In this document: piece by piece, positions 14,109 through 63,430 of the stretch | Layout of the letters: every line of letters begins with the position of its first letter | Position numbering within the stretch: position 1 is the first letter of the stretch | From: Octopus vulgaris | Taxonomy: Eukaryota | Direction: 5' to 3' | Assembly: GCA_951406725.2 (NCBI GenBank) | Contig: OX597815.1 | Coordinates: 158,472,001 to 158,536,000, forward strand | DNA: 64,000 bases | Made by a program: the position numbers and the translations under genes | The notes under the pieces: model-generated | Told to the model about the DNA's origin: nothing | Database searches by the model: none | What the model saw: only the letters and a program-made list of their open reading frames with translations

Positions 14109-14112
<4 letters not shown>

Positions 14113-14397
14113 TGACGCATATTTGCCATTTGAATATGGCTAACCACTAAGGGTGGATGCTACTGTAGTTTGTAGCCCCAGGAAGATATCTCCTCCAGCT
14201 GGCTATAGACACACTATCTGTGCCCTATCAGTATAGTGTGTATATAGTGTGTCTATAGCCAGCTGGAGGAGATATCTTCCTGGGGCTACAAACTACAGTA
14301 GCATCCACCCTTAGTGGTTAGCCATATTCAAATGGCAAATATGCGTCACGATGTGTTACCGCTACTGTTTATAACTCACTCTGAGATTTATCATTGT
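14109..14397. repeat. Fold-back element: 109-bp inverted arms, 26-nt loop and unpaired tail, in (TA)n
   Basis: 14109-14217 is the reverse complement of 14244-14352 except AGGA vs GAGA. Confidence 0.9.
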
Positions 14398-15205
14398 TAT
14401 ATATATATATATAAATATGTGTGTGCATGTGTGCATATGTGTGTGTGTGTAAATATATATGTGTGTGTGAATGTATGCTTGTGAACTCAGATATTATAGC
14501 AGTGTATTTCCCTGAGGTGTTTTCTTTTCCATCTACCATTTGTAAATTATATATAACCAATTCAAATTCTGTGTATGATTTCCCATATCTAAATTTGATA
14601 CTTCTCTGTTAAGAAAAAATAACTGGAAGCGAATATGATTCGCTAACAAGATCTAAGAAGATGGAAACTTGTTGGAAGTTCATAATTATAAATTGCTAAA
14701 CTTAAGATTTGAAAGAATTAAGATCATATTTATCTTGAAAAAGAGAAGAGAGTTGTGTAAGACGAATTTTCGAGGCAAGAAAACTACTGAAAAACTACTG
14801 TGGGGAAACACTTCTTAGAAGTGGGGACAATAACTGTAAAATAATGAGATTTAATTGGAAGATAAGTCATTAGCTTAATAAGCTTTATCTTCAGAGGGTT
14901 ACATGAAACAATGTTTTGTAGAATAACGACCATGGGAATAATTATCGAATAGTTACAAAGAAGCAATGCTCTGATGATGAGAAAAGGGTTGTAGTTTAGC
15001 TGCCAAAACAGGACCAGATAATATTAGAAACTTACATATAATCTCAATCAAGGAGAGAATGAACAGCGGCATGGATACCAATCTATATGTGACACTAGCT
15101 GCAGTTCAATGATACACACATGAAAAAGTAGAAAGAAGTTATATATATTCGTTGATAAATCCTATATTCATGACCAGTTGGTTTGATTACGAAACTAATC
15201 TCTGT

Positions 15206-15248
<43 letters not shown>

Positions 15249-15322
15249 GACCTTTAATAAATTTCCATTCAATTAGCTTTTCATTCTTCCCATATGAATT
15301 CGTTTTATATTCTGACATTCTC

Positions 15323-15394
<72 letters not shown>

Positions 15395-15777
15395 GGCGGT
15401 GAGCTGGAAGAATCGTTAGCACGCCGGACGAAATGCTTAGCGGTATTTCGTCTGCGTTACGTTGTGAGTTCAAATTCCGCCGAGGTCGACTTTGCCTTTC
15501 ATCCTTTCGGGGTCGATAAATTAAGTACCAGTTACACACTGGGGTCGATGTAATCGACTTAATACCTATGTCTGCCCTTGTTTGTCCTTTCTGTGTTTAG
15601 CCCCTTGTGGGTAATAAAGAAATAGGTATTTCGTCAGGCTTCGCGTTCTGAGTCCAATGCCGGCGGGGTCGAATTTACCTTTCATCCTTTCGGGATCAAT
15701 AAATTAAGTACCAGTTACGCACTGAGGTCAATGTAATCGACTCATCCCCTCCCCTAAAATTTCCTATTGCAGAAAGA

Positions 15778-15778
<1 letters not shown>
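15395..15778 (+). mobile_element. tRNA-SINE family B with duplicated core (Meta/MESC-domain-like), between (TTA)n tracts
   Basis: A-box-like GAGCTGGAAGAATCG, B box GAGTTCAAATTC, and core CCTTTCATCCTTTCGGG.TC.ATAAATTAAGTACCAG present twice (~15495 and ~15678). Domain assignment is from recollection. Confidence 0.8.
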
Positions 15779-15819
<41 letters not shown>

Positions 15820-15867
15820 GTTATTAATATTATTATCATTATTATCATTATTATCATTATCATCATT

Positions 15868-15918
<51 letters not shown>

Positions 15919-16379
15919 GAGTGAGAGAGCAGTTCATGCCATCAAAGTGACACTGGGGTAAAATATACGAAGCCCAATATACCCATCATGACTACCCGTC
16001 TGATAAAGGTACAACAGGCACATGCATCACAACCATATGTGCGCGACATGGTGATCTCATATCAAGATAAACAGCACATGACCTTGCAGGTGGGGCCCAG
16101 TTAGAATTTTCTTCAGGTTGAGTAGCCCATCCCGCTCAAACGGTCCCTGAATAAGGGTGGTTTAAGGATGTTGAAAGAACCACCCATGTTTCCAGAGGTG
16201 AACTATTCAAACCCCAAAGAATCCCTCTCAACACATGGCTATGATACTCCCCCACTACTTCTGCTCGTGATCAGAGATGCACATATCGTCAGCCACTAAG
16301 GGACATGCTCAACTGGTTAAGGTCAAACAACTGACAAGCAAATCTGTGGTATTGAGCAGAATATTTGCTGTAGCCCATC

Positions 16380-16383
<4 letters not shown>
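15919..16383. mobile_element. Unclassified non-coding insert between (TTA)n tracts
   Basis: Sharply bounded, more GC-rich 465-bp block flanked on both sides by (TTA)n; no credible ORF. Confidence 0.5.
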
Positions 16384-16439
<56 letters not shown>

Positions 16440-16485
16440 CATCATTATTATCATTATTATTATTATCATCATCATTATTATCATT

Positions 16486-16517
<32 letters not shown>

Positions 16518-16531
16518 CATCATCATTATTA

Positions 16532-16619
<88 letters not shown>

Positions 16620-16656
16620 CATCATCATTATTATCATCATCATTATTATCATTATT

Positions 16657-16707
<51 letters not shown>
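16384..16707. repeat. (TTA)n/(TCA)n microsatellite
   Basis: Directly visible. Confidence 0.95.
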
Positions 16708-18056
16708 GCCTTTGCACAACATCTAATGCTGGAGATGTACTACGGTGTCAGCTGCTCACTTCCAGTGAGCCACTAACCCAAGGGGATGTAAATAAACCAA
16801 CACTACTTGTTAAACAGTGATAAGGAGAAAACATAAACAAATACACACTCACTCATACGCACACAAACGCAGATGTTCTGTTAGAACAAACTACAAGTCA
16901 ATATGAGAGTTTCTCTCGTGGTGTCTACAGCAGTATAGTTTGTTCTAACAGAACACCCACGTTTAAGTGGGGATAAATATCATCTATCAAGTTGTAAAAT
17001 GAAAACGGGACCTAGCTCGATGATATTTGAACTCAGAATGTAAAAGATTTTACTTAAATATAATGCAAGTATTTTGTTCGTCGTTCTCAAAGACATTGCC
17101 AATCCGCAGCTCAGTAGCATACTCATAGCTAGTTATGCTGTGACAAGACCATAAATTTGTTGGAGAAAGATATGTGCCTTTGAGTCGATCTCAGCGAATG
17201 ATTTGTACCCTTTTAATCAAACTTCTTTGAATCGTAATCCCTTGCAGAGTTCGAACCTCCTGGACCATATCCCTGCTCACTACTGTTCGGGCAGAGATTG
17301 TTGTCCGCAAGTACGAGACCCGTGAGTCTGAGTGACTGTTCCACCGCATCTCTCTCTCTCTATCCTCCGGGGCAAAACCTTTTCTATTTTGTTTGCTGGT
17401 ACCATGAGAAATGTTGAATTATGATAGAAGAATGTGGCCTTTACTTCGGACATATAGTATCGTTATAGTTAAGTGACTAGAAGTGGGGTTTTTTCCCAGT
17501 GCTTGCTTTATACACACGCACTTATTTATATAAACATACATGCATCCATATACGTCTTTTGACACCTTAAAGATATCTCTGAATACAAACACTTATTTTA
17601 ACATATCCCCACGCCTTCACTAACTTAAACCATAACAAGAATGGTTTTAATTTCTACAACATGTTGCAGTAAATTATAAATATATTCATTATTTTATCAA
17701 ACAAACTTTGTAGAGCACTTTGTGGCGAGGATGAATTCCTTTGCACTTAGCTACATGTACAATATTAAAATAGGGTCAACGAAGATATTTGTAGTGAAGT
17801 GTATTCACAGTTGGAAACTGGGGTCGTTGAATACATGATTTTTGTGTGTTTTTTTGTTTTGTTTCGTTCATGAAGAAAAGGGGAAATGTGTAGATGTTAA
17901 CAGCACACCTGTCAAGCAATGCGTACTCTAGCAGCGATGCATAACATCCTTTAGGTATTAAAGTACATTTCGAATATTTAAGATAAGATGTGTGCGCATG
18001 TGTGTCTGTATGTATGTATGTGTGTATGTATGTATGTATGTATGTATGTATGTATG

Positions 18057-18090
<34 letters not shown>

Positions 18091-18309
18091 TGTATGTATG
18101 TATGTATGTATGTGTGTATGTATGTATATATGTATGTATGTATCTATGAATGAATATATATATATATATATATATGTATATAAAGAGAGAGAAATACATT
18201 CATAAATATGTACATATATACAAGCGTTTATTTAAACATATATGTATGCAGTTATACGTGTGTGCGTGTAAGCAAGTATATGTGCATACATATACGTGTA
18301 CGCTTATGC

Positions 18310-18358
<49 letters not shown>

Positions 18359-18367
18359 ATATATATC

Positions 18368-18557
18368 CAGTAATCTCTCGACTATCACGGGTGTTGCGTT
18401 CCAAAACTTCCCTCAGAAGTAATTAAAATATAAAAAAATATGAATAGCTATCGGGCGCAGAAACCCGCGATATACTAAGTGAATTAAGTGCATGATAGGT
18501 GAGCCACGATGTACTGAGTGCGCGATAAGAGAACCGCGATATGACGAGGGATTACTG
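18368..18557. mobile_element. Tc1/mariner (pogo/Tigger-like) MITE
   Basis: TIRs CAGTAATCTCTCG / CGAGGGATTACTG followed by TA; lies in (TA)n context. Confidence 0.75.
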
Positions 18558-18579
18558 TATATGCATATATATATATATA

Positions 18580-19612: not shown

Positions 19613-19635
19613 AAAAAAAAAATATATATATATAT

Positions 19636-19827
19636 AGGGGGAGATTTAAAAAAAAACAAATGACGAGGACAGGTGGTATGGACAACAAACAGATGTATTA
19701 GTATAACGCTCGGGATGTGAAAAAGTATTTAACGTTTCGAGCCTACGCTCTTCTACAGAAAGGAACACAGAAAGAAACAAGGAGAGAAAATAAAGAATAT
19801 GTAGTGGCTAGCGATCTATCATGGCGC
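19636..19827 (-). mobile_element. Short (TA)n-adjacent element with minimal hammerhead-like motif (putative PLE pLTR relic)
   Basis: Minus strand 19762-19728 reads CUUU-CUGUAGA-A-GAGC-GUAG-GCUC-GAAAC-GUU-AAA; collinear with 36856-37068. Confidence 0.55.
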
Positions 19828-20620: not shown

Positions 20621-20719
20621 TGTATGTCTGTGTGTGTCTGTCTTAGTATATGTATGTGAATGCATATGAGAGAGTATGTGTGTGTCAATGTATGTGTGTG
20701 AGTGTATGTGTGACTGTCA

Positions 20720-21353
20720 ATTACACTGACATAAACTGGCTACGTGAAAGTGCTATACTGGTTCCAACAAATGAAATGGTTGATAAACTCAATCATGAAT
20801 TTCAAAAGTTAACAGATACATTAGAAATGACTTTTCTATCAATTCTCACAGCAGCCGATCAAGATCAGGCTGTTCGATACTCTGCTGAATTTCTGAATAC
20901 GCTTAAACTCACTGGGATACCACCGCATAACTTGACACTAAGCTGGATGCTCCCATTATGCTGCATAGGAATCTTGACCCACATCATCTGTGTAATGGAA
21001 CTTGTTAAATTGTTTCTTCCATGAAATCCCATATCCTACAAGTAACAATCATAATAGGTAGTCACAAAGGAAAACTGTCTTTATTCCAAAAATTTTCTCT
21101 CGTACCTATAGTTGTTCCATTTGAATTTAAGAAGCCTCAGTTTCCAGTCAAACTAAGTTATGGTATTTCAATTAACAAATCTCAGAGTCAATCCCTCAAG
21201 GTAGTTGGACTTCATCTCTCTGCTACATGCTTCTCCCGTGGCCAACTCTATGTTGGTTGCTCACGAGTTGGAAACCGCAACAGTTTATTCATTTAGACAC
21301 CAACAAATAATTAGACAATGAATATTGTTTACCCTGTGGTGCTTCAAGATTGA
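20720..21353 (+). pseudogene. Helitron PIF1-like helicase C-terminus, frameshifted
   Basis: WLRESAILVPTN, YSAEFLNTLKLTGIPPHNLTL, QFPVKLSYGISINKSQSQSL and CFSRGQLYVGCSRVG in ORFs 20650 and 21021. Confidence 0.9.
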
Positions 21354-25150: not shown

Positions 25151-26588
25151 TATAATAGTTAATTATAAAAATTATATAATATTTTTTAAACATCGAATGA
25201 CAACGAGGATCTATCTAAACAGAACAGGAATCAAAGTGGATCTATAGGTAAAAATTGGTTGAGAACCACTGGTTTAAATAAGCAAAGATGTTTGTTCTGC
25301 TTTCATTAGATTCCTCTTTAAAAATGATTCATTTTCGGAGATTATGTATATGACAGATTTCTTTATCAAATTCTAGCTTCCCAATATGCCCTAATGCGGG
25401 CATATACATGTGCCATAAAGTGCCATAAAGTTTCTACGCTCAAATACTGTTCATTGTTTTAGGTAAGGTACGAAACATATGAATATATGCAAACATGTTT
25501 TTAGATAAATTTATTTAAAACTAAAGTATACAAATACATGTATAAGAATACGCATAAATATACATCAGGCAATACACACATAAATTAACATATGTTGCAC
25601 ATGTTTATTTTGGTATAAGCGCTCATGTAAGAATGAAATTTAATGCTGATTAAGGTAATGTTTTAACTAATTACTAAGATTACACTATAATCTATTTCTC
25701 TGCTAAAATCCTAATATTGCTTCTGTTCAACAATTTTGATTATATTTTTTATTTATTGTAGAGTATGGACGCCTTTCACCTTCTAACTGGAAATTAAGAT
25801 TGAAAATTAGAAAACTCGTAAATACGGTTTTTTATCATATCGTTTTCACTATACAAGAAAACCAGATGCTTTCTATAAAATATTAATTTTCAAGGATGGC
25901 ATGAAAAGTCGATTGTAATGAACGTATTCATATTTGCTATTTGAATGACAAAAAGACAGAGCCTAAAGAAAATACCTTGTTGACAATGCTGATATCTGAT
26001 TAACAATTTCAATGATAATATTTGAAATTATAATGTTTTGATAAAAATAGATATGCTAGCCAAAATTTTAGGATAACAGATATCAAAATGTGCCATTTTA
26101 TTTGATGAGTGAAAATGGTAATTTTGAATACTGAAAAAAAAAATATCTGAGATTGGTTCACTTGGAATAATACAGACAGGGGTGAAGCAAAAAAAGAAAT
26201 GAAGAAAAACTGGAAGTTTTAAGGGGGAAAGACTATTAGTGTGCAGTACAGAAACACAGTCAGTTTGTTATGTCAAGCTATTTTGTTTCACCTTCATTCT
26301 TTCATGAATCAATCTCTCTCCCCTCCTCACACGCATATTCTCATTCACATATATTGCTTTACATTTATTAAAACTCAATATTTAAATGTCATGTCTTCAA
26401 AAACCAAGTACTAAGTTATTGAAGATACCGTGGAAAATAAAAGATTATCCTTTCATGATTTCACGTTCAAACTTGTTTATATATATATTTATAGTTAATC
26501 TAAACATGAACAAAGAGAAAAAACAACAACGTGAGGACGTGAAACAAGTACAGTGTTATTGGACGCTCAGCAAAGGAAAGAAAGAAGG

Positions 26589-26627
26589 AGGATTCAACGT
26601 TTCAAGCGGAGCTCTTCGTCAGAAACA
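26589..26627 (-). ncRNA. Minimal type I hammerhead ribozyme motif
   Basis: Minus strand GUUU-CUGACGA-A-GAGC-UCC-GCUU-GAAAC-GUU-GAAU. Canonical core, 4-bp stem II, wobble-containing stem I, loopless stem III. Lies in a ~200-bp element (26492-26700) between TA-rich flanks. Confidence 0.6.
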
Positions 26628-26730
26628 TAGAAAAAGGAAAGGTCCAAGGAAGGGAAGACGGAGAAGGAAAATAGCCAACGATACACACGCGGTCACATAC
26701 GTATATTACATATATATGTATGTATATATA

Positions 26731-32644: not shown

Positions 32645-33712
32645 TATGTCTGTATGAGTTTGAGGTTAAGTAACCATCTAAGGGATATTAAATATCCGAT
32701 ATACTACTGGATGTATACCTACGTATTTATAACCAAGTGCTTACTGTTGCAGGCCAATATCACAATTGAATACGGTATGGGTGGGGATAAATTAGAAATT
32801 TACCCAGGATTTATAAGGCGAATGAGAAAATGGAGAGGATAGACAATTGACAAACATCAGCCTGTAAACATTCAATAATATCTATTAATTGATTACAATC
32901 ATATGTGTAAAGTGATCCAAGTAAGCGAATGGAATAAGCCAATAAATACGTAAATAAATCTCTCTCTATATATAAACGGCAGTTTGTCTGTCTGTGTGTC
33001 TGTGTGTCTGTCAGGTTGTACCCTCACCCTGACCACGGCTTTCAACCGATTCTGATGAAACTTAACACACACATAGCCCAATGTCATAATTCAAAACTAA
33101 CGCAGCGAAAATTTTGAAAAGTTCCCCCAGTTCTGAAAAAATCGATAAATTCGACATGGGGTCGAGAATCTAAGCTTTTTATATGCAACACATTTTCTGG
33201 GCTGTACGTGGGCTGTTCACGCGTTGGGAGGCGCAATGATGTTTTCATGTTTTCGCCCAAAGGGACAGCTAGGAACATCGTGTACACAGAAGTATTCGAG
33301 TGAAGAGAAGACATTGCAACCTACACATGCGCCTTCGTTCCCTAGAGGGAAAGGACTAGATTGGGATTAGTCGTTGCCTACTAGGGTCTCTTACATACCC
33401 GGGCAACGCCGGGCTATGCTGCTAGTATATAGATAAAAATAAACAAATAAGAATAGATGAGTGTACAAATAGTAAATTCTTACAGCTGCTTCTACCATGG
33501 GACTGTCAAATCTTCCAAGTTATCCTCATCACGCCAGTGATATACAGAGATGAACAAACATTGAACAGGGGTTGGACAATGGTTGAGCCCCAAGGCTTCA
33601 TCAGAGAGACCAAATGTTCGGAAACTATTTCTATTCTTATTATATTTTTTATTTCATTTTATTCTATTATTTTAACTTACTTTCCCACATGTTAGTTTCC
33701 TAACATTTGGTC
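32644..33712 (-). mobile_element. Putative Penelope-like pLTR relic interrupted by a Helitron
   Basis: 20-bp inverted repeat at one end (33608-33627 / 33693-33712), hammerhead-like motif 33478-33607, and terminal 102 bp duplicated in inverted orientation at 30526-30627. Confidence 0.45.
32959..33425 (+). mobile_element. Mini-Helitron (467 bp) retaining the last helicase codons
   Basis: A|TC 5' end; 33202-33303 encodes LYVGCSRVGRRNDVFMFSPKGTARNIVYTEVFE*; 3' CCCGGGCAACGCCGGG hairpin followed by CTAG|T. Confidence 0.9.
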
Positions 33713-34535
33713 TTACTGAAACACATATGGCCTTCCATTGCATACACTGTCTATCCAGAGCTTAACAATTATTTACAGGACCTCAATGTAGGCGGCAGAA
33801 TTAACTCTAAGGCCTTGTGGAATGAAGTAAGGCAGCATCACATGTTCTTCATTGCTGACAAGCCCATAAAACCATGACAGTTACAGGAAAGTTTGCATGC
33901 ATAACACTTGGAACTTCAGAAGTGTCTGCACATAACCATCTCGCATTTCTCCTCTTAACTTTTTGATCTTGGTCGACGTTTTTCTCGTTTGAGAAAAACC
34001 AAATCAAATCTTCTGCAGGATTTTTTAGTTTGTTTAAGGAACCTTTTAGATCTGATGTAGTTATTTTATTTTGCTTTTTCTGACAAATTGACCTTTCCTC
34101 ATAATATAAGACTTATATCTGATGTCTTCGTGGACAACATTTCTGACTGTTTCTTTTGACACATGGAGATCTTTTGCAATTGACCGCATGGGATTTCTGG
34201 TATTGTAATCAATGGTCTGTTGAACTTGCCTGATAAATTCAGGTGTTCTGATGATTTCAGAGCGTTTAGAATGCTTTTTATGCTTTAATATTGGTGATAC
34301 GCTTCCATCTTCAGTCTCTCACTCTAGCGAAAGATCTGGAAACTTTAAAAAATCGAGATATTTCGAAATCACTATGCTCAGCCTTTATAATCACAACATC
34401 GTGCCTCTTCATTTCTTGAGAAAGCTGAGGGTCTGCCATTATTATTTTGTGAATCAAAGATTATACAAAGTTAGCAAAAAAGGCAGCAATAACCCCAAAA
34501 AGGTATGTCCTCAAATACCTTACGCACCCTATGTG
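33710..34535 (-). mobile_element. Tc1/mariner superfamily (maT/DD37D-like) transposase relic, 3'-truncated
   Basis: Minus translation from ATG 34439, with frameshifts: MADPQLSQEMKRH..., RTPEFIRQVQ..MRSIAKDLHVSKETVRNVVHEDIRYKSY, IWFFSNEKN.DQDQKV..RWLC, GLRVNSAAYIEVL, GRPYVFQ*D. Confidence 0.8.
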
Positions 34536-35543: not shown

Positions 35544-36794
35544 CGAGAGTAGGCTGAAAATGTCATAGGCTGACCAAGATACTCTCATAGAATGTGACCT
35601 AATGAAGTTTATTTATCAACATAGTGCCTCTTGTGGTCCACACACTTCTTCCATCAGTGTTGCAGTACTTGGATGCCATGGGTGAAGAAGCTTTGATCGT
35701 GTTGGACAAAAAATCATCAACAGCAGATATGACGTCACCATCACTGCGATACTGGTTCCCAGTCAGGTGTTTCTTCATGTTGAGAAACAGATGATAGTCA
35801 AGTAGGGCCAAATCAAGAGAATAAGTAGGGATCAAGCAGTTCGAACCCAGTAGCCATTGAAACCCCAGACTTGTGTGCTGATGAAACAAGACTCCTTTCA
35901 TCAATTTTCCTAGTCATTTAGTCTTGATAGCCTTTTGTAACTGCCTCAGCTTACTGGCACAGTACTTTCCATTAATGCTGTGGAACTTTTGAATAATAAA
36001 CACAATGCCATTTGCCACCCCAAAAACTGAGCCATCAACTTCCCTGCTGATGAAACGCACTTGGCCTACTTTGGAGTTAGTGAGGAAGGCTGTTTATACT
36101 GCATGGATTGTTTCTTTGTCTCTGGTTCAAAGTAATCAAGCCAACACTCATCCTGGGCTAGGAAATAACCAAGGAAACCAGTTGGACCTACCTCAAACTA
36201 TGGCAGATTCTCCGTGGTGTGATCAACAACTTGGTGCGCTTTTGATCAGGTTTAGAAGACATGGCACCTACCGAGCAGACGCCTTCGTCATGCAAAGTGC
36301 AAAATATTCTCAAATCTCTCACAGGATATGCTAATAGCATTGGCTATTTGATTTATTCAGTTGCCTGCCATCCATCACTATATGGTAAATAATGTTTTCT
36401 TCGATGGTAGCATTGCAGGACGTCCAGACCTTGGGTCATCTTCAAGACTCTCCGTTCCACTACAAAATCCAGCTGCCGACTTTTGCACTGTTGATAAAGC
36501 TGGAGTGTCACCCCACCTAATGTGATAATTATTTTAGCGTGTATATCCTCGGGGGCTAAAACCTTCTCCGCAGGTACTAAATAAATAACGATGCGAAATT
36601 TTGTTCACTTTCAAGAGAAGTCGCTACTAGTTACTTTTGGAGTATTCTTTAAACTGTCAGATGTCAGTTTATTCAGGAAAAAAAAAACGCAATGAAGTTA
36701 TTAATAACAAGAGATGAAATTGATGGATGCAAAATTTCACAGTGTTAGCATCACTCCTTAATAGTCAGCCTACGAACTTTTCAGCCCACTCTCG
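35544..36794 (-). mobile_element. Full-length degenerate mariner (DD34D)
   Basis: ~30-bp TIRs CGAGAGT(A/G)GGCTGAAAA...C(A/G)TAGGCTGAC at both ends, 1.25 kb long, TA at left; ORF 35599-35904 carries YSLDLALLDYHLF (YSPDLAPSD motif). Confidence 0.9.
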
Positions 36795-36855: not shown

Positions 36856-37068
36856 TAGTTCAAATTTACAAAAAACAAAAGATAAAGACAGGTGTAGGAA
36901 CAACAAGCAGGTATATTAGTTTAACGCTCGGGTAAAATGGAAAGGTCTTTTACGTTTCAAATCTACGCTCTCCGATAGCAAGCAATAAAAGGGGAAAATG
37001 AAGAGAGAACGAAAAAAAAAAAACGGAGAGAGAAAAACTGTGTAGTGTTCAGCGGTCCAACATGGCGG
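36856..37068 (-). mobile_element. Second, decayed copy of the 19636 short element
   Basis: Shares GACAGGTG..ACAACAA..TATTAGT.TAACGCTCGGG...ACGTTTC...CTACGCTCT and the terminal GTAGTG...AGCG...CATGGCG. Confidence 0.65.
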
Positions 37069-37217
37069 TATGACTACATAAATATAAAATTCTGTTTTGG
37101 AACGATGGATCTTGAAGCAGACAAAGCTATAAACAATAGCGTGTAAATATTAAGTTCAATACCCTTGTATTGAATATGTTGAAGTCTTACAAATTTTGCA
37201 TGCAAGTAATTCAGTAG

Positions 37218-38107
37218 TATTTTTACTAGTTATAGATTGCATTATGAAGGAAACTACGATTGAAAGCCAAACAGGCATTGAATGGACGGATGCAGAAGCT
37301 CTAGAAGATCTCGACTTTGCAGATGATATAGCGCTACTTTCACAAACATATAGCCAAATGCAAAATAAAACGTCAAAATTAGAAGCAATTGCTGCCAAAC
37401 TGGGATTGAAAGTCAACCGCGACAAATCAAAAATTATGTGCGTTAATGAAGAAAACAGCGAACGTATTAAACTAGAAACTGGTGAACTAGAGGATGTAGC
37501 CGAGTGTACGTATTTAGGTAGTAAGATAACGTTTTCAGGCGGCACCGACGAAGATATTGAGACGAGAATAAGTAAGGCAAGGACCGCTTTTCACCTGTTA
37601 AAAAAAAGTATGGAGTGCAAGTGTAATTTCAATAAAGAACAAAATAAGAATTTTTAACGCTAACGTAAAAGCGGTGTTATTGTTTGGGGCTGAGACATGG
37701 CGAACAACAGTTAAATTAAATAAGCAAATACAATCATTCATCAACAGATGCTTGCGTAGTATACTTAAAATTAGATGTCTCGAATACATAAGCAATATGG
37801 AGCTATGGCAAAGAACAAATCAAGTTTCGATTAGGGAGCAAATATTTAAGAAAATGTGGAAGTGGATTGGTAGCACAATTAGAAAAGACACACCAAATGT
37901 AGCGAAAAGTGCCTTACAGTGGAATCCGGATGGATACAGAAAGAAAGGTAGGCCTAAGAACTCGTGGCGGAGATCAACACAAAAGGAACTAGAGAAAGGG
38001 GGACATTCATGGCAGAGTATAAGTACTGAAGTGAAAAATTATGCGACATGGAATTCATTTATAAGTGGCCTATACCCCGTGCTGGAGGGTTAAAGACAAA
38101 AAAAAAA
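37218..38107 (+). mobile_element. 5'-truncated RTE-clade LINE with frameshift
   Basis: LEDLDFADDIALLS, YLGSKI, LLFGAETW, WKWIG and ALQWNPDGYRKKGRPKNSWRR; frameshift in the A-run near 37600; A-tail; probable TSD TCAGTAG (37211-37217 and 38108-38114). Confidence 0.92.
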
Positions 38108-42909: not shown

Positions 42910-43707
42910 CATAATAACACAGGCTTTCTATATAGCGCATTAAAGAATAGTGGATTCTCGGAGAAGATCCAGTTCAACCAGCTTAATGCTAATAATAATG
43001 CTGCACGAAGAACTAGGACTAGGAAAGTTTTGTGGTTCAACCCGGCTTTCAATTTGGCCGTAAAGACTAATATAGGTAAGGAATTTTTGAGATTAGTCTC
43101 TAAGCATTTTAGGCAGGGTCATAAATTCTACAGAATATTTAATAGAAGAACCCTGAAGGTTAGCTATTCTTGTTGCAGAAATTTCGCCTCTTACATTAGC
43201 CAACATAATAGGAAGCTAATTGAGATTAGACATGGTGCCGAGCCCATTAAGAAATGTAATTTCAAAAACGAAAGCTCCTGTCCGTTAGAAGGGAAATGTC
43301 TAGTGAAAGGAGTAGTTTATAGAGCCAAGGTGCAAGTGGAAGGCTCATCGGAATACAAGACATACACAGGGGCTTCAGAAAATTCATTTAAAACAAGATT
43401 TTATTCTCATAAGAATTCTTTTAAATACCCAGAGAATAGAAAGAAAACCAGCCTAGCAAAATATGTCTGGGAACTAAAAGAAAAGGAAGCCCCACCTTTC
43501 AACGTGACATGGAGCATTCTGGACAGGGCGGCACCATACAGGCATGGAGCTTACAAATATAATTTCAAGTGCAGGCTTTGCTTATTAGAAAAAATGCATA
43601 TATTATTCAAAGACAATAATTCTTTGAATCAAAGAAGTGAATTAATGAACTTATGTAGGCACAAGGCTAAATTTAAAATGTCGAATATAAATATACCATA
43701 TGGATAG
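42910..43707 (+). CDS. Penelope-like retroelement C-terminus with GIY-YIG endonuclease (Naiad-like), 5'-truncated, RT absent
   Basis: RKVLWFNPAF, IFNRRTLKVSYSC, CPLEGKC, GVVY...YTG, FKTRFYSHKNSF, CRLCLLEK and LNQRSEL..LCRH in one uninterrupted frame. The first ~65 aa of the 42715 ORF look like non-homologous AT-rich flank. Clade assignment is from motif recollection. Confidence 0.9.
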   Translation, partial: HNNTGFLYSALKNSGFSEKIQFNQLNANNNAARRTRTRKVLWFNPAFNLAVKTNIGKEFLRLVSKHFRQGHKFYRIFNRRTLKVSYSCCRNFASYISQHNRKLIEIRHGAEPIKKCNFKNESSCPLEGKCLVKGVVYRAKVQVEGSSEYKTYTGASENSFKTRFYSHKNSFKYPENRKKTSLAKYVWELKEKEAPPFNVTWSILDRAAPYRHGAYKYNFKCRLCLLEKMHILFKDNNSLNQRSELMNLCRHKAKFKMSNINIPYG

Positions 43708-44710
43708 AGTATATATTTTGTATTTTGATTTTTTGATTTTGATTTTGACTCTTGAGCGCTACAACGGACCTATAGCAAAGTCTTATTGTTTCTACATATA
43801 TATTAGGAAAAACCTACAAACTTTGTTTTCATGTTATTGTATTGCATAAGATTACCTTGATTATTTATATTACCTTGATTATTTATAAATGACCCAAAAT
43901 AGGATGTTATATTTTATTTTATAGGTCTTTCGTATATATTTTTATTAATGCACCCATTTTTTAAAAGCAATGTTTTTTTATAAAAAAAGCAATGTTGTCA
44001 AATTTAGAATGTTTATATAAGTTTGTGTACAGCAAAGCATATGTATTTGTAAGCATGCGCATCTGTGTATGTGTGAGTGAAAGTATGCTTGTGCTTAAGC
44101 ACACATATACACGACGGTATGTATATGTATCAATTCAAACTTGTGTATGTATACAGGCCTCTATAGATGCCAAATAACATCGCTACAATTTTTTTCCCCA
44201 CCCCTCCTCCGTTCCTTTTTCTCTCTTTCCCTTTCTTTCGTTCCCCCTCCTTGCTCAGTATATGAGAATTGCTACATAGATGAATTTTAGCTTGCGTGCG
44301 AGACGGTTTGCGTGAATATATGTACACATGCTTTTATGTGTATAATTTAGATTCATATTCATACGTCTGTATATGTATGTATGGCGTTTACGCGCATCCT
44401 TTTGTGTATGTTGATATATATATGTGGATTTTAATATAAATATGTATTGCAGTATTTATAACAGGTTTAATTTCTATGCATTAATTTGTACTGTCTTCAT
44501 TAACGGCAACAGGTTTTTTCCTCGGTATTTTCCTCGGATTTTATAATTTTTATAAGTTTTTATATATATATACATATATTTTTGACCTTTTTGTTTATCG
44601 CTCGAAGATTGACCGTTTTTTTCTAAAGGGCCAATCAAACAAGTCCATTTCTTTTTAAAGGTGTAGCGTTTGTAAGAGTATAAATTGAATTAATATATAT
44701 GTTCCATTCT

Positions 44711-44764
44711 AGCAAAAACTGTCTGATGAACGGCAACGAGAAACTCAGAGTAACAGATTTTGTT
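44711..44764 (+). ncRNA. Type I hammerhead ribozyme in the PLE 3' region
   Basis: Stem I AGCAAAA-A-CUGU / ACAG-A-UUUUGUU; CUGAUGA at 44723-44729; stem II A-CG-GCAA-CG-A; GAAA at 44740-44743; stem III CUC-A-GAG; GUA cleavage triplet with cut after 44752. Confidence 0.8.
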
Positions 44765-44789
44765 GATTTTTCTGCTGCTTAAAATAAAG

Positions 44790-45035
44790 TATATATATAT
44801 ATATATATATATATACATACATATGTATATATATACACACATATGTATGTATGTATATATACATACATATGTATGTATGTATATATATATATACATATGT
44901 ATGTATGTATATATATATATACATATGTATGTATGTATATATATATACATATGTATGTATGTATATATATATACATATGTATGTATGTATATATATATAC
45001 ATATGTATGTATGTATATATATATACATATGTATG

Positions 45036-47140: not shown

Positions 47141-47291
47141 ATCTATCTATCCGCTCAGTCGAAGTCAACTCTCGGTTACTCGATGTATCAGTGTCCTCCA
47201 GCCAGTTCTATCCTGGGTCGTTTCTTTCAGATTGGCTATGTCCATTCCCGTGTCATTCTTGATGGTGTCAAGCCAGCGGGTTCTTGGTCGG
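47141..47291 (-). mobile_element. RTE (BovB-like) LINE extreme 3' end
   Basis: Minus translation RPRTRWLDTIKNDTGMDIANLKETTQDRTGWRTLIHRVTES, then a short (GATA)n tail. Confidence 0.75.
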
Positions 47292-47900
47292 TGTTACTGA
47301 TACATTGGTATAAAGGGAAAATTTGTTATTTGCAATGTTTGTTGCACAGGGAACCAGATGTTTACTACTTGGTATTTTTCTGGTATTGTTATCACGTAGC
47401 TGTTGAAGGTGGACTGTTATTGTGTCGTATAAATGACTTTAAAATGTTGGGGTAAATGTTTGTTCTAATTTAAATTCATAAGTAAATTCACAATAAGGTT
47501 GACGGAGATTCCGTAATCAAGGTAGTTACATTTTTGATTATTGTAGTTGTGTTTTTGGTGGGTAATCTATGCTAGTAAATAATTTTTTAAAAGACTTTGG
47601 TTGGTTTTTACTTTCAAATATTTTGTGTGTTCCGAGTGTCCTCTTCCTTTTCGTGGGTCATTCATCAAAAATGGAATATCTTGATGAATGGTGTATGCAT
47701 CACTACTTCTTGGAATGCGTGTTGATTTATTAGGGTAACTATTGAGTGTATCAGGATGTTTCATGCTTTTCGTATTTCTTGGCTGTCTCATTTTTGCGCA
47801 TTCTATTGCATTATTGATTCAAGTTAGTGGGAATTGGCTTTCGACTGACATATTCTTAAGTTCTTGTAATCCTTTCTCCCGGGTTTCGGGACTGGATAGA
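47290..47900 (-). mobile_element. Decayed Penelope-like element (post-RT linker and GIY-YIG C-terminal part)
   Basis: Broken minus-strand motifs REKGLQELK..INNAIECAK, SKNQPKSFKKLFT and ITVHLQQLRDNNTRKIPSSKHLVPCA. Confidence 0.55.
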
Positions 47901-47917
47901 GTTATCTTTTATATATT

Positions 47918-48142
47918 TATCTTTTATTTGTTTCAGTCATTAGATTACAGCCAGGCTGGGGTTTCATCTTGAAGGACTTTTAGTCAAATGAATCAACACG
48001 AGTACTTATTTTCCTTTTAAGCCTGGTACTTATTCCATCGGTCTTTTGCCGAACCACTAAGTTACGGAGACGTAAGCACACCAACACCGGTTGTCAAGAT
48101 GTGGTGGGAGACAAACAGGCACAAAGACACACATAATATTAC

Positions 48143-49417: not shown

Positions 49418-49978
49418 GGCGCAGGAGTAGCTCTGTGGTAAGTAGCTTGCTTAACGACCACATCGTTCCGGGTTCAGTCCCACTGTGTGGTACCTTGGGC
49501 AAGTGTCTTCTACTATAGCTTCTGGCCAACCAAAGCCTTCTGAGTGGATTTGGTAGACGGAAACTGATATATTGATATATATATATTTATATATATATAT
49601 ATATTGATATATATATATATTTATATATATTGATATATATATATATATATTGATATATATTGATATATATATTGATATATATATATTTATATATATATAT
49701 TGATATATATATATTGATATATATATATTGATATATATATATTGATATATATATATTGATATATATATATTTATATATATATATATATAATTTATAAGTG
49801 AGGGCAAAAGAAAAAATTTCTAATGCCAAAATATGCCGAAAATAGACACAACTATTTTCGGCATATTTTGGCATTAGAAATTTTTCTTTTGCCCTCACTT
49901 ATAAATTGTTTATAAATTTAACCTTTAAAGCATATTAAAAAATATTTTAATATTTTCGAAAAATTTTATCCTACATTA

Positions 49979-50042
<64 letters not shown>

Positions 50043-57348: not shown

Positions 57349-57388
<40 letters not shown>

Positions 57389-57759: not shown

Positions 57760-57800
<41 letters not shown>

Positions 57801-57835
57801 CATACATACATACATACATACACATATATACATAC

Positions 57836-57888
<53 letters not shown>

Positions 57889-58611: not shown

Positions 58612-59000
58612 TACGAAGGGGTGCTAAAAAGTTCCTGGCTTTAAACCTTAGATGACAGGGCCAATCTATCGTCCGAAAAATCAAATGACGAAGAAAGACT
58701 GTGTTAGTTTCATTCAATTTCCTACAAGGATATATATAGTTTTATATATGTAAAGTCATGACTTTATTTTAAATGTAAAAAAAAAAAAAATGTGTATTCC
58801 ATCTGTAGGTCTTTTTGGCGCTGAAACTCCAAATGAGGCTCCGTCTGCAAAGGATTAAACACATCATGAAAGGCCTGGTTAGAAGCCCAGCCTTCCGAGT
58901 TCCTTTACAAAGGTCAGGAAAACTGAAGTGCCGCTACAATAAGTGTGTAAATCTGGGAGGGGAATATGCTGAATAAAATCATAATTAATTGATTTTCTTT
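58612..59000 (+). mobile_element. Mariner deletion relic
   Basis: TA-CGAAGGGGTGCTAAAAAGTTCCTGGC TIR-like start; C-terminal KAWLEAQPSEF...KLKCRYNKCVNLGGEYAE*. Confidence 0.65.
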
Positions 59001-59005
59001 CACTC

Positions 59006-61357
59006 TGTTATAATCCTTAAAATACTGGATGTTTATAACCCCCACTTCAGTATACGGTATACGTAGTAAAACCAATAAAGACACCACTAACTCTGACTAC
59101 CTACTATGTACTCCCGTACTTCACGTACTTCTCTTTACTTATAGTGACTATGTCTTTCCATTTGTCACATGGGAGGGGTGTACCAATATTACTAATTCCT
59201 TACAAAATCTCCCCTTTTAAGTTTTTTTTTAGGAAGTGTCATTTTATTTAGCATGAATTTTTTATTCATTCCACCTCTCTTTCTGAGTTTTTTTTCGTAC
59301 AATTTAATATTTTTTGCACTTGGCATCTCTTTTCAGGAACTCTATATGTTTTCGTTTCCTCTCCCTTGTACGCTTGGGTTCAATCATTTGCAGTGACGTT
59401 GGTACTTGGATAGTATCGAACAATCATTCTATTGGTCCCTCCAACTTCTTAGGTTTGCTTTCCGCAAATCTCTTTTTCAGTTGGTTCTTGCATCACTTTT
59501 GTCTTCCTTTTCTACTTTTTACCTAATACATCATTTTACCTATGCATTTTGTAATTATGCTATCTTACCAATTCTGCTTTCCATTCTTGTATGCCATCAT
59601 ATATACCTTTTCACCAACTTTAAAGAATCTTTCTATGTTTTCCCTGACACTTTTTCTTTTCTTGCCAGGAAGCAATTTATCAAAGACTGATTTTACTTTC
59701 CTTGCAAACATCAGCTCCGCTAGTGATCTATTCGGATTTGGTGTCACACGGTACGCTCTTAAGAATTGTTGAGGAAGAGCTGTCTCATCCGTGACTTCCT
59801 TATTCGATTTTCTAAGGGTTCTTTTGAAATTATCGACAAAGCGTTTTTGCCTGTCCATTAGATTTGGAATGGTGTGGCGCCGTAGTCATATGTTCTACAG
59901 CGAACGTTTCACAAATTTTTTTAAATTCGCTAGACACAATTTGAGTTCCTTTGACAGACACTATCTTGTTTGGGATGCCAAAGCTTGCAAACAAGTCTTG
60001 TAAAGAATTTATCACAGTTGAGGAGGTTGGTTTTTTACAATTGCAAATTTCAAGCCATTTCGAAAACTATCAACTACCGCTAAGTAGTAAAAACTATTTA
60101 AAGGACCAGCGAAATCGATGTGTAATCTCGACCACGGAACATCTACTTTTGGCCAAGCTTCACTTTTTATCGTGTGAAAATTTTAATTTTGTTTTGGCTT
60201 ACATACAGGTGTTCCACTCTATTTTACTGCAATTTTTATTTCAGTCCCTCAGCCGCATTCGAACCTTCGACTGAAGCAACTGTATTTCCACACAAAACAC
60301 CTATGGGCGTATACCACAATTTGAACAATTCCGTTCACTCTGTGCCGATTAAATTAAGTGAACTTTTTAACACATATATCTTTGCCTTTTTCGTTTGACC
60401 TCGAAATGTTACATTACATACGAATTCACTGAAAAAATATATTTTTCCCGTCACACTATGTGCTACCTTTTTCGATTTAATTAGTTTCAGCTTACCGACA
60501 CATTTCCAAGACTTTTTCGTGTATAATGGTGATATTACTAGCAGTGTCCAACTGCATTTTAACACATGTATTTCTGATTGTCTCCTTCACGAATTTCCTC
60601 ATCGTTATGTTATCAATTTCTTCCGATGATATACTGTTTATTTTTTTCCTTTGTTCTGACGTTTTGTCATCTTCGTTCTACTGTGCATCTTTATATGTCC
60701 TGTATTTCCGCAACGAAAACACTCCGATATTCTAAATAAACAATTTTTCCTCAGGTGCTTACCGCCATATGCAAAACATGGGTTTGTTTCCTGATTTTTG
60801 TCATGTTTGTTAGAAAACACTTAATCTCTATTCTGATTATTTCGCACTTACTTTACTTGGAAATAATCTTTACGTTCAATTTCCTCAGAACACACTCAAA
60901 GCGAGGAGATATTCAGTAACTCCGCGTGTCTCTTTCTTTGCTTTTTAAAGGTTCTCAGAGTATGAAGCCCTGAAGCTGCTTTTTTCTGCCGCAAATATTG
61001 TAGTTGAAATTCTTATAATACCATTGAATACCACTGACTAGATATTTTAAGAACTTCTTAATCAAAAAGATATTTTAAGAACTTCTTAATCAGAAAGAAA
61101 ATGAAAATTTTACTTTGTCTATTCTAAGCACCTTTTTCCTTATTCCTTAATTTCAAATTCAAATTTTTAATCTCGACAGACTTTATGAAGAAACGATTAC
61201 CTCCCTTACCCGCTCGGGGACAAGATAATAACTATGTCAGCTTTCTCATTTCTTTTTAGGAGAAAATCATAGGCAAAAGAAAGGGTTTTTGTAAAGCAGT
61301 ATTGTCAAACTTGCAACAGGAACCTGCTAAAATCCACACTATCCTTGTTTGCCGCGA
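59006..61357 (-). mobile_element. Decayed Ty3/Gypsy LTR retrotransposon (gag knuckle, protease, integrase, 3' LTR; RT/RNase H missing)
   Basis: Zinc knuckles CFRCGNTGH (60638-60820); protease VKMQLDTAS near 60540-60565; integrase HIDFAGPL...DLFASFGIPNKIVS...PHHSKSNGQA; PPT AAAAGGGGAGA then TG...CA LTR at 59204-59006. The 5' limit is uncertain. Confidence 0.85.
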
Positions 61358-61689
61358 TGTTTGCAATCATGAATGTGGGAAACAGTAATGCTATTCTTAT
61401 TGTTATTGATGTATGTGTCTTCATATATATTCGTAGTCATGTTAGAATCACCAGATACATAACTATTATAAAAAAAAGTTCGTATTTTCATTTATAATTA
61501 TTTTCTGCTTTTGTGCGTTGTTTGGGAAAAATCTTTTGCTCGGTAAGAGAGCGTGTCTGGTGGATATTTTCTATTGATTGTAGCTAGCGAAGAATATATT
61601 TTCATAATAACGATTTTTCTTAAATTTGACACAACAAAGGATAAATGAAAACTTCTCGCCTCCTTGACTATTACTTCCGTGGAATAAAA

Positions 61690-62160
61690 TACAATAGCAA
61701 TCCAATTTTTGCGAATACATACAGGAAGGGCGAGAACAGAGAGCAGATTCTAAAGCAAGAAAGGACTGAACATAATGGCTTGTGCTCTCTTCGCACAGCA
61801 ACGCCTGGGATGGCTTTGTTATGTTAGCAGAATGGAAGACGGACGAATCCCAAAAGTCTTCTGCACTAGCCTTAATAGAAGATCACTTCTACATTAAAAA
61901 GATATCTGCAAAATAAGACAAGTTAGAAAGAATTTATTGCAGACAGCAGTAACTTGTAAACATGATGTGAAGATAGACATGCAGAGGAAAGATCAGAGAA
62001 GCATTGAACAGTGACAGAAGAAAAAAAAAATAAATAAAACGTAGACAAAAGAAATCTACATCAACATCACTGCAGCTAAGTACAATTATTTTCCTACAAA
62101 AACTAACACAAAGAATGCCAGTCAGATTGAGCTATACACTTCAGAAGGCATTGCAGCTCA
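61690..62160 (+). mobile_element. Decayed RTE-like LINE 3' relic
   Basis: QQRLGWLCYVSRMEDGRIPKVF (RLRWLGHVxRMEDGRIPK motif). Confidence 0.65.
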
Positions 62161-62213
62161 AATCTTAACTGAGCGACTGGCTCGAACATATACACACACG
62201 TACACAGACACAG

Positions 62214-62274
<61 letters not shown>

Positions 62275-62276
62275 TG

Positions 62277-62308
<32 letters not shown>

Positions 62309-62311
<3 letters not shown>

Positions 62312-62533
62312 TAAAATTATAAATAAGGGTATCTAAAAGACACCATCATGCTAGAGATAGCAGTCAAAACTTGACTTTAAAACCACATCAAGTTTTGACT
62401 GCTATCTCTTGCATGAGGGTATCTTTTAGATACCCTTAATTATGATTTTAATAATAATTATAACCTATGAGGTTTTAATTCCCATGCTAGCCACTTGATA
62501 TGATCGGTATTTTAAATAACGATCTTATCCTTA
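62309..62533. repeat. Fold-back element: 66-bp arms, 13-nt loop, ~80-nt tail, in (TA)n
   Basis: 62309-62374 is the reverse complement of 62388-62453 with a few mismatches. Confidence 0.88.
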
Positions 62534-62570
62534 TATATATATATATTTAAAAAAAAAGATGCGTCCTTTT

Positions 62571-62808
62571 AAAGCCTAGCCAGGCTCATGGGCCCGGTTT
62601 CGCGGTTTCAATGGCGTATGTGTTCCCCAGCTGAATGGGACGCCAGTCCATCGCAGCATTACTCATTTTTTGCCAGCGGAGTGGACTGGAGCAACGTGAA
62701 ATGAAGTGTTTTGCTCAAGAACACAACGCGTCGTCCGGTCCAGGAATCGGAACCACAATCTTACGATCATGATGCTGACACCCTAACCACTAAGCCACGC
62801 GCCTCCAC
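62571..62808 (-). mobile_element. tRNA-SINE family C, full length
   Basis: Minus: A box TGGCTTAGTGG, B-box-like GGTTCCGATTCC, GTGTTCTTGAGCAAAACACTT and CTGCGATGGACTGGCGTCCC. Confidence 0.85.
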
Positions 62809-62821
62809 ATATAATATATAT

Positions 62822-62918
<97 letters not shown>

Positions 62919-62938
62919 TATACATATAGTGAATATGC

Positions 62939-63430
62939 GTGTACTCCATCCCATGACGCTGTGGTAGGTTATACAAAGGGGAAACATGTCGCCCCTCAAA
63001 ATAAGAGTATAGGAAACATCGCAAAGCTGTGCCACGGGGAAATATTGATATATCGGGTATAGCTGATCATGTATGCAAAAATGGAGACTACCTCCTCCTA
63101 TGGGATTAAGTTAAAATAATAGACACAGAACACCACTGGAAAATACGAAAACTAAAAAAAGCAGCATGTAGGAACCGGTATTAAGGAAGGATAGGAGAAT
63201 ATTAGATTTATAAGCCCTAAAATTCACTGCATATACCACGGGCATATAGTATAGTGATTAAGAGCGCGGGCTACTAACCACAAGATTCTCAGTTCGATTC
63301 CAGGCAGTGATAAAAAATTACCTTAGGAATGAGAACCCAGTTTCGAAATTTCCCCAAGAAGGCTGGAGGGTATATTATCCGAAACAACAAACAAGATGAG
63401 GACAAATATCCGTCAATTGTAAATAATGTA
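62939..63430 (+). mobile_element. Penelope (Poseidon-like) 3' end: GIY-YIG relic, tRNA-like segment and hammerhead remnant
   Basis: VYSIP*RCGRLYKGETCRP/KIRV*/HRKAVPRGNIDISGIADHVCKNGDYLLLWD*VKIIDTEHHWKIRKLKKAA (62939-63166); tRNA-like 63240-63305. Confidence 0.75.

What the first reader, a model, noticed from the sequence alone, without database searches (positions are those of the whole stretch)
14109..63430. Synthesis: a microsatellite-targeting Penelope/hammerhead system with non-coding derivatives
Seen in one window: three PLE coding relics of different type (42.9, 47.3 and 62.9 kb), six hammerhead-like motifs in varied states of decay (19.7, 26.6, 33.5, 36.9, 44.7 and 63.4 kb), and three sequence-unrelated hairpin-plus-tail inserts (14.1, 49.8 and 62.3 kb), nearly all abutting (TA)n. 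Established: PLE pLTRs encode minimal hammerheads and Naiad/Chlamys PLEs insert in microsatellites. Inference: this genome hosts many short ribozyme-bearing or fold-back PLE derivatives, some possibly mobile on their own like retrozymes. I cannot establish novelty without a search.
Basis: partly seen in the sequence, partly recalled or inferred. Interest (0 to 1): 0.7.

Follow-up and report, generated by a model that had tools for sequence, protein, structure and literature searches.

The report
Hammerhead retrozymes riding Penelope retrotransposons
Most of the self-cutting-RNA motifs here are the ordinary tail ends of broken Penelope-type jumping genes, but the three hairpins are stubs of small protein-free repeats that carry a predicted self-cutting RNA and were likely pasted into TA repeats by a Penelope-type enzyme, a route proposed before and visible here in the shape of the insertions.

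Summary
(1) Known: the coding pieces are Hydra (42.9 kb), Neptune (47.3 kb) and Poseidon (62.9 kb) Penelope-like elements (PLEs), not Naiad/Chlamys. The motifs at 19.7, 36.9, 44.7, 63.4 and probably 26.6 kb are 3' ends of 5'-truncated PLEs. Only 2 of 6 fit a strict hammerhead descriptor; 33.5 kb is unresolved. The Hydra piece belongs to a very young family (150 of 150 scored hits 99-100% identical, many with intact ORFs). (2) The hairpins at 14.1, 49.8 and 62.3 kb are short copies of three non-coding units (352, ~478, ~483 bp) that wrap round on themselves and carry a type I hammerhead: non-LTR retrozymes. Their insertions copy the Hydra footprint: back-to-back arms in (TA)n, one ending at a tailed site and one at a tail-less site (84 of 107 two-arm loci; Hydra 20 of 20). 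This supports PLE mobilisation of retrozymes, proposed in print but not, in my searches, shown from insertion ends. Cleavage, circular RNA and the exact partner enzyme are untested. This scan noted the same pattern for other families in this genome and in one other genome.

The parts
14109..14397 (.). Two-armed insertion of retrozyme family 14 (352-bp unit): inverted tail-less arm 14109-14234, direct arm 14244-14397 with ~45-bp tail; (TA)n on both sides; hammerhead not included in this short copy
19636..19826 (-). 3' end of a 5'-truncated Neptune-type PLE; hammerhead-like motif about 19725-19762 with T at core position 6; 3' end at (TA)n
   Evidence: (L034 and L059 extend into a CX2-5CxxC + GIY-YIG frame)
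26492..26700 (-). 3' end of a long element with an intact minimal hammerhead (core starts at 26622); homologous to the Neptune 3' end; no ORF reached within 1.5 kb upstream
33426..33716 (-). Internal fragment (with a short fold-back) of an old AT-rich repeat of at least 1.6 kb; CTGATGA plus stem II but no GAAA; parent not identified; not at (TA)n
36858..37070 (-). Decayed sister of the 19.7-kb Neptune 3' end
   Evidence: score 197; maximum of 300 shuffles 107
42932..44790 (+). 5'-truncated copy of a young Hydra-clade PLE: RT thumb, linker and GIY-YIG to 43707, then 3' UTR/pLTR ending at the tail-less site in (TA)n
44719..44756 (+). Type I hammerhead of the Hydra pLTR (near-palindromic stem III, short stem II)
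47337..47930 (-). Old Neptune-type PLE coding relic (RT thumb, linker, start of endonuclease), next to the 3' end of a LINE
   Evidence: 47% over 108 aa to relative L366, E 3e-21
49790..49982 (.). Two-armed insertion of retrozyme family 49 (~476-478-bp unit) with a partly deleted tail; in (TA)n
62312..62531 (.). Two-armed insertion of retrozyme family 62 (~482-483-bp unit) with ~80-bp tail; in (TA)n
62936..63430 (+). 5'-truncated Poseidon-type PLE: GIY-YIG relic, 3' UTR with a tRNA-like A/B-box piece (about 63243-63310) and the deleted remnant of its hammerhead (about 63355-63395); one element, not two

Best explanation
The three hairpins are the shortest insertions of three non-coding, hammerhead-bearing repeat units (non-LTR retrozymes) that are likely copied into (TA)n by a Penelope-type RT-endonuclease, most likely of the Hydra clade, while most isolated hammerhead motifs are 3' ends of 5'-truncated autonomous PLEs. 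Shown: the units are 352-483 bp, non-coding, wrap head-to-tail and hold a type I hammerhead; insertions end at two fixed sites per family; back-to-back arms pair one tailed with one tail-less end; a young intact Hydra family leaves the same footprint at kilobase scale. Inferred mechanism: the enzyme cuts both strands of (TA)n. Each cut end primes reverse transcription at one of two internal sites on the same RNA or on RNAs of the same source copy. Each cDNA stops at its own point and the two are joined, often over a few shared bases. Short stops give a hairpin with a one-sided tail; long runs pass the ribozyme and go round the unit again. The template is inferred to be a circle or an uncut multimer.
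For: Units: self-repeat periods of 352 bp (12 of 30 loci exactly, 15 with any period), 460-518 bp (13 of 30) and 426-574 bp (5 of 30). Upstream sequence re-enters the family's own tail. Longest ATG ORF is 42-56 aa and GC is 32-43%. CTGANGA..GAAA is present in 14 of 15, 25 of 28 and 25 of 31 distinct copies; all three majority units pass the strict descriptor. Ends: tailed + tail-less in 27 of 31, 28 of 37 and 29 of 39 two-arm loci; only 2 of 107 had the same site twice. Among family-14 loci found with an internal query, 10 of 13 (my count). 3' ends followed by a TA run in 55 of 70, 57 of 79 and 31 of 71 cases, against 2-4% background. Arms longer than one unit: 12 of 74, 14 of 88, 5 of 108. 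Hydra: 150 of 150 scored hits at 99-100%; intact 727-codon frame; 20 of 20 chosen head-to-head pairs have exactly one tailed end, and 8 arms in 7 insertions run back past the hammerhead (my reading). Arms within one insertion differ less than arms of different insertions: Hydra 0.15% vs 0.95%; family 14 2.0 vs 3.1%; family 62 8.9 vs 15.5%; family 49 8.0 vs 9.0%. Junction overlap of 1-5 bases in 10 of 19 Hydra junctions. Frangieh 2024 (PMC11167929, parts 1-2 of 4) shows in vitro that a PLE protein cuts and extends both strands and starts at two internal RNA sites that delimit the tail.
Against: No sequence homology links the three units to the UTRs of this Hydra, the Poseidon or the Neptune (best E about 0.01-0.03, AT-rich), so the partner is named by footprint only. 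The families are older than the young Hydra (arm divergence 2-9% vs 0.15%), and Naiads also target (TA)n and leave tails. Each genome search scored only the best 40 candidates (150 for the protein), and the first query per family was the hairpin itself, which enriches two-arm loci. De-duplication was by flank and imperfect. 21 of 107 two-arm loci have an end at neither site. The arm-similarity gap is small in family 49, and gene conversion between arms could also produce it. Junction overlap in family 14 is present in only 9 of 25. The family-62 hammerhead has an unpaired A before GAAA. Rfam found no hammerhead at its gathering score in 8 loci. Self-cleavage and circular RNA were not tested.
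Confidence: 0.8

Rival explanations
1. The hairpins are only truncated 3' ends of autonomous PLEs whose ORF-bearing copies were not sampled; the tandems are stacked pLTRs.
For: Inverted 5'-truncated copies with a one-sided tail are standard PLE products (PMC8557442 section 6). An older Hydra-like short hairpin exists in L327. Only the best 40 hits per search were scored.
Against: Upstream extension returned to the family's own tail wherever it was long enough, with a fixed period. tblastn with Hydra, Neptune and Poseidon seeds found nothing linked in 60 loci of families 49 and 62. Two family-14 loci hold Hydra-like pieces: in L347 it lies beyond a microsatellite on the other strand; L338 was not examined.
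Confidence: 0.08
2. Same elements, but the second arm is made by snap-back: the first cDNA folds on itself and is copied back, stopping short of the tail.
For: Arms of one insertion share variants; short overlaps at some junctions.
Against: Snap-back needs the tailed arm to reach furthest inward. Instead the tail-less arm is the longer in 57 of 84 retrozyme pairs (tailed 18, equal 9), and either arm can be longer in Hydra pairs.
Confidence: 0.07
3. The hairpins are MITEs (non-autonomous DNA transposons inserting at TA).
For: Short, inverted-repeat, TA-flanked, with about 1,700-2,700 first-look candidates each.
Against: One-sided tail, variable centre and arm length, single-arm copies, head-to-tail wrap and an internal hammerhead.
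Confidence: 0.02
4. The palindromes are long-read fold-back assembly artefacts.
For: Arms of the youngest insertions are 99.3-99.95% identical in most pairs.
Against: Ends fall at two fixed element positions, flanks differ on the two sides, and arm divergence rises with family age.
Confidence: 0.02

Closest known systems
Animal non-LTR retrozymes (Cervera and de la Pena 2020, PMC7229834: passages and sections 14, 17 read; Li, Clavereau and Pollet 2026, 10.64898/2026.07.22.740005: parts 1-3 of 5 read)
   Same: Non-coding, low-GC units of a few hundred bases with one type I hammerhead and palindromic or short stem III; head-to-tail copies; co-occur with PLEs; predicted to be well self-paired (64-67% of bases as circles).
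   Different: Described as tandem repeats, with large target duplications when present; PLE mobilisation argued from co-occurrence and pLTR homology. Here the copies are dispersed, partial, two-armed insertions in (TA)n with PLE-type tail ends, and no pLTR homologue was found.
Hydra-clade PLEs (Craig et al. 2021, PMC8557442: sections 6, 11, passages and supplement passages read, including Hydra-1_Obim)
   Same: C-terminal GIY-YIG, RWK and DKT motifs, CxxC and CxH around the E and N residues, no CCHH, canonical hammerhead, (TA)n target, inverted copies with tail.
   Different: Unit about 3.36 kb (paper: generally under 3 kb); linker CxC is CxF in this family; tail 70 bp (paper: 30-40 for Naiads and other PLEs); very young with many intact ORFs. 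By eye it is a different family from Hydra-1_Obim.
PAc Poseidon element in vitro (Frangieh et al. 2024, PMC11167929, parts 1-2 of 4 read)
   Same: Both strands cut and extended; two internal RT start sites delimit the tail; hammerhead cleavage not needed for insertion.
   Different: They saw no difference in start site between strands. Here one arm uses each site in 20 of 20 Hydra pairs and 84 of 107 retrozyme pairs.
Non-autonomous Chlamys PLEs such as MRC1 (passage in PMC8557442)
   Same: Non-coding PLE parasites with head-to-tail copies.
   Different: Those resemble their autonomous partners at the 3' end and the clade mostly lacks hammerheads.

Membership tests
Non-LTR retrozyme (families 14, 49, 62) | Short head-to-tail repeat unit of a few hundred bp | tested here: met
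   Periods 352, ~478, ~483 bp; mostly partial tandems. Two consecutive hammerheads in L331 and L350.
Non-LTR retrozyme (families 14, 49, 62) | One type I hammerhead per unit | tested here: met
   Family 62 has an unpaired A before GAAA. No Rfam gathering hit.
Non-LTR retrozyme (families 14, 49, 62) | No protein coding, low GC | tested here: met
   ORF at most 56 aa, GC 32-43%
Non-LTR retrozyme (families 14, 49, 62) | Self-cleavage of the RNA | not testable with these tools
   needs in vitro transcription
Non-LTR retrozyme (families 14, 49, 62) | Accumulates as circular RNA | tested here: inconclusive
   No holder on record as RNA, contigs only
Non-LTR retrozyme (families 14, 49, 62) | Target-site duplication when present | tested here: inconclusive
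   Cannot be read in (TA)n
Hydra PLE (42.9-44.8 kb) | Single ORF, RT then C-terminal GIY-YIG, RWK and DKT motifs | tested here: met
   L244 ORF
Hydra PLE (42.9-44.8 kb) | No CCHH; CxxC and CxH around E and N | tested here: met
Hydra PLE (42.9-44.8 kb) | CxCX5C linker | tested here: inconclusive
   Second Cys is Phe in this family; the motif is present in 114 of 120 listed homologues
Hydra PLE (42.9-44.8 kb) | Canonical hammerhead and (TA)n target | tested here: met
Hydra PLE (42.9-44.8 kb) | Placement in the clade on an RT tree | not tested
   Compared by eye only with the supplement alignment
Neptune PLE (19.7, 36.9, 47.3 kb) | CX2-5CxxC linker before a C-terminal GIY-YIG | tested here: met
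   In longer relatives L034, L059 and L366, L375, L376; no tree built
Penelope/Poseidon PLE (62.9 kb) | C-terminal GIY-YIG without the linker Zn finger, hammerhead in the pLTR | tested here: inconclusive
   EN and hammerhead seen; the clade label rests on recalled motif likeness; no tree built
Naiad/Chlamys PLE | N-terminal endonuclease, no canonical hammerhead | tested here: not met
   All three coding pieces have the endonuclease after the RT or directly before the 3' UTR, and two carry hammerheads
MITE | Symmetric terminal inverted repeats, fixed length | tested here: not met

The most novel reading that the evidence does not exclude
Animal retrozymes are written into the genome by a Hydra-type PLE through strand-asymmetric twin priming on one circular RNA: each cut strand starts at its own fixed site, set by a conserved RNA junction, and runs round the circle past the ribozyme. 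The young intact Hydra protein found here would then mobilise several sequence-unrelated ribozyme RNAs in trans, giving a direct in vitro test of the retrozyme life cycle.
Probability: 0.4. Interest if true: 0.72.

Novelty: new member of a known kind. Interest (0 to 1): 0.5.

Why it matters
How animal retrozymes get back into the genome is stated as open in both papers read (PMC7229834 section 17; 10.64898/2026.07.22.740005 discussion). Here three retrozyme families and an intact, very young Hydra element share one insertion footprint with mapped start sites. That names an enzyme, templates and expected products for a direct assay. It also adds an in vivo rule (one arm per start site) to the in vitro PLE mechanism. 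For annotation, such hairpins could be mistaken for MITEs or miRNA precursors. The kinds of element are known, so the gain is mechanistic evidence, not a new system.

Tried and rejected
Rfam: no hammerhead among the 150 best of 299 window matches listed (149 not shown); none at gathering score in 8 loci. Pfam misses the PLE pieces and the full Hydra ORF. RNA: no RNA holder listed. Four contig sets, three only guessed to be RNA, cover all 30 bins of the family-14 unit and join its end to its start. Genomic tandems explain that too, so it is no evidence on expression or circles. Partner search: no homology of the units to the Hydra, Poseidon or Neptune UTRs; four older Hydra-like endonuclease pieces were printed with their downstream DNA and showed no unit by eye. 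33.5 kb: two searches and six-frame reading gave no ORF and no wrap. 26.6 kb: no ORF in 20 longer copies. ARAGORN: no tRNA in 8 Poseidon loci. Shared start signal: a predicted multi-branch junction spans the tail-less site in all three units. Across 7 family-14 relatives 87% of cells pair and 3 of 17 pairs change on both sides, but this does not beat the shuffle control (27-235 of 500), and the modules were picked by a stem pattern, so it is only a lead. Literature: 7 searches listed no paper describing retrozyme insertion ends; the library lacks most subscription papers, and the supplements of the bioRxiv preprint could not be seen. Rejected: Naiad/Chlamys, MITE, snap-back, assembly artefact.
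Full report
Setting. The window lies in a 2.8-Gb animal genome (G000:C2:158472001-158536000) and is dense in microsatellites. The repeats look cephalopod-like to me; that is recalled, not tested. I traced each of the 12 features into the genome. Each DNA search scored only the best 40 candidates, so counts are samples, not copy numbers.

Coding pieces. 42.9 kb: the endonuclease query gave 150 of 150 scored hits at 99-100% identity, many in 727-codon frames. A full copy (L244) encodes RT plus C-terminal GIY-YIG with RWK, DKT, CxxC and CxH and no CCHH. These are the Hydra features of Craig 2021 (PMC8557442 section 11), except that the linker CxC is CxF. The window copy spans 42932-44790, is 98.5% identical to L244, is 5'-truncated and ends in (TA)n. 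The 44.7-kb hammerhead is its pLTR ribozyme. 47.3 kb is an old relic whose relatives (69-71%) show a CxxC linker and GIY-YIG of Neptune type. 62.9 kb is a Poseidon-type endonuclease that runs into the 63.25-63.43-kb UTR in many of the loci printed, so the 63.4-kb motif belongs to it. The Poseidon label rests on recalled motifs; no tree was built.

Hammerhead motifs. A strict descriptor finds 2 in the window against 0.017 in 60 shuffles. The 19.7-kb family has a fixed 3' end and variable 5' ends; 2 of 30 loci reach a Neptune endonuclease; its core has T at position 6 in the majority and 0 of 30 copies have CTGANGA. 36.9 kb is a decayed sister and 26.6 kb a more distant homologue. 26.6 kb has an intact core in 23 of 29 copies, but no ORF was reached in 20 longer copies. 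33.5 kb lacks GAAA in 29 of 29 copies and sits inside an old repeat of at least 1.6 kb with no ORF seen; it stays unexplained. Single minimal hammerheads from truncated PLEs are described in Cervera 2014 (PMC4209133, parts 1-2 of 4). This part is ordinary.

Hairpins. All three are real and belong to families with about 1,700-2,700 first-look candidates. Outer ends are fixed, centres vary, and the tail is usually on one side. Searching with the inner extension showed that upstream sequence passes a type I hammerhead and then re-enters the family's own tail. Periods are 352, about 478 and about 483 bp. The units are non-coding and low in GC. Core boxes are present in 14 of 15, 25 of 28 and 25 of 31 distinct copies. 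They meet the sequence-testable features of non-LTR retrozymes (PMC7229834). The 49 and 62 units share a 68-nt module at the tail start. A sister of family 14 has 355-358-bp periods in 6 of 20 loci.

Shared footprint. Mapped on the units, 3' ends fall at two sites per family, about 45-100 bp apart. Of 107 two-arm loci, 84 pair one tailed with one tail-less end, 2 use the same site twice, and 21 have an end elsewhere; 5 complex loci were set aside. The first query per family favoured such pairs; with an internal query family 14 still gave 10 of 13 (my count). 3' ends are followed by TA runs in 55 of 70, 57 of 79 and 31 of 71 cases against 2-4% background. In the young Hydra family, 20 head-to-head pairs that I picked from the hit list all have exactly one 70-bp tail; the tail equals the first bases after the pLTR in full copies. 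Eight Hydra arms, and 31 of 270 retrozyme arms, are longer than one unit and so cross the ribozyme site.

Mechanism. Frangieh 2024 shows that a PLE protein cuts and extends both strands and starts inside the RNA at two sites that bound the tail. I infer that each cut strand of (TA)n primes at one site, the two cDNAs stop independently, and they are joined. Snap-back is unlikely because the tail-less arm is the longer in 57 of 84 pairs. Arms of one insertion are more alike than arms of different insertions (clear for Hydra and family 62, slight for family 49). That fits one RNA or one source copy, though conversion between arms could add to it. More-than-unit arms need a circle or an uncut multimer; DNA cannot tell which. 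The partner is named by footprint alone: no homology to the three PLE UTRs, the retrozyme families are older than this Hydra, and Naiads also target (TA)n and leave tails.

Known and new. Retrozymes, PLE hammerheads, Hydra targeting of (TA)n and inverted copies with tails are in print. PLE mobilisation of retrozymes was proposed (PMC7229834; PMC8557442) and supported in vertebrates by co-occurrence and pLTR homology, with the mechanism left open (10.64898/2026.07.22.740005). Seven searches listed nothing on retrozyme insertion ends. A 2026 octopus repeat annotation (PMC13282606, parts 1-2 of 3) counts 336 recently active PLE insertions but does not discuss clades or ribozymes in the text I read. 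Earlier notes of this scan report the same footprint for other families in this genome (8 shown of 249 matching) and in another genome; I had reached my reading before opening them, and they are not independent support.

Verdict. New members of known kinds, with good genomic evidence for a proposed mobilisation route and a ready test system. Interest 0.5.

Noticed in passing
window 63243-63310; L062-L080: The Poseidon 3' UTR holds a tRNA-like piece with A- and B-box-like motifs (recalled consensus) about 100 bp upstream of the hammerhead; ARAGORN calls no tRNA in 8 loci. It could be an internal pol III promoter.
   Followed up: partly
G000, one search hits; L241-L260: Very young Hydra PLE family with many intact ORFs and kilobase palindromic insertions whose arms are up to 99.95% identical; possibly still active.
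   Followed up: yes
tails of Hydra (L244), family 49 and family 62; L327: An ACC-loop-GGT hairpin starts about 11-13 nt after the tail-less site in Hydra, an older Hydra-like copy, and families 49 and 62, but not in family 14 (read by eye). Post hoc; candidate recognition signal.
   Followed up: partly
alignment A1 (window 14291-14370 and 6 relatives): Family 14 has at least five diverged relatives with a conserved closing stem and a GCCA-loop-TGGC hairpin; 3 of 17 pairs change on both sides, not above the shuffle control.
   Followed up: partly
L408-L427: Sister retrozyme-like family (355-358-bp period; 3166 first-look candidates) with a variant first core box in L063.
   Followed up: partly
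window 33426-33716; L388-L407: Old AT-rich repeat of at least 1.6 kb with a half-core hammerhead-like motif and no ORF; unclassified.
   Followed up: partly
window 37154-38093 and 47155-47290: LINE pieces: RVT_1 plus DUF6451, and a near-identical 3' end of a second, younger LINE; RTE type by recall.
   Followed up: no
window 20647-21296; 33849-34318; 35599-35913; 36353-36604; 59565-59885: Pif1-like helicase fragment (Helitron-like), Tc1/mariner-like relics and an integrase-like fragment; weak or no Pfam hits; labels partly recalled.
   Followed up: no
The Hydra ORF has 1042 relatives at E<=1e-30 among 7995 scored, nearly all unnamed and mostly on short contigs, best 58% identical; Pfam has no hit for the query.
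   Followed up: no
window 14168-14294, 62342-62420: The hairpins score weakly as miRNA precursors in Rfam, far below gathering; a likely source of false miRNA calls.
   Followed up: no
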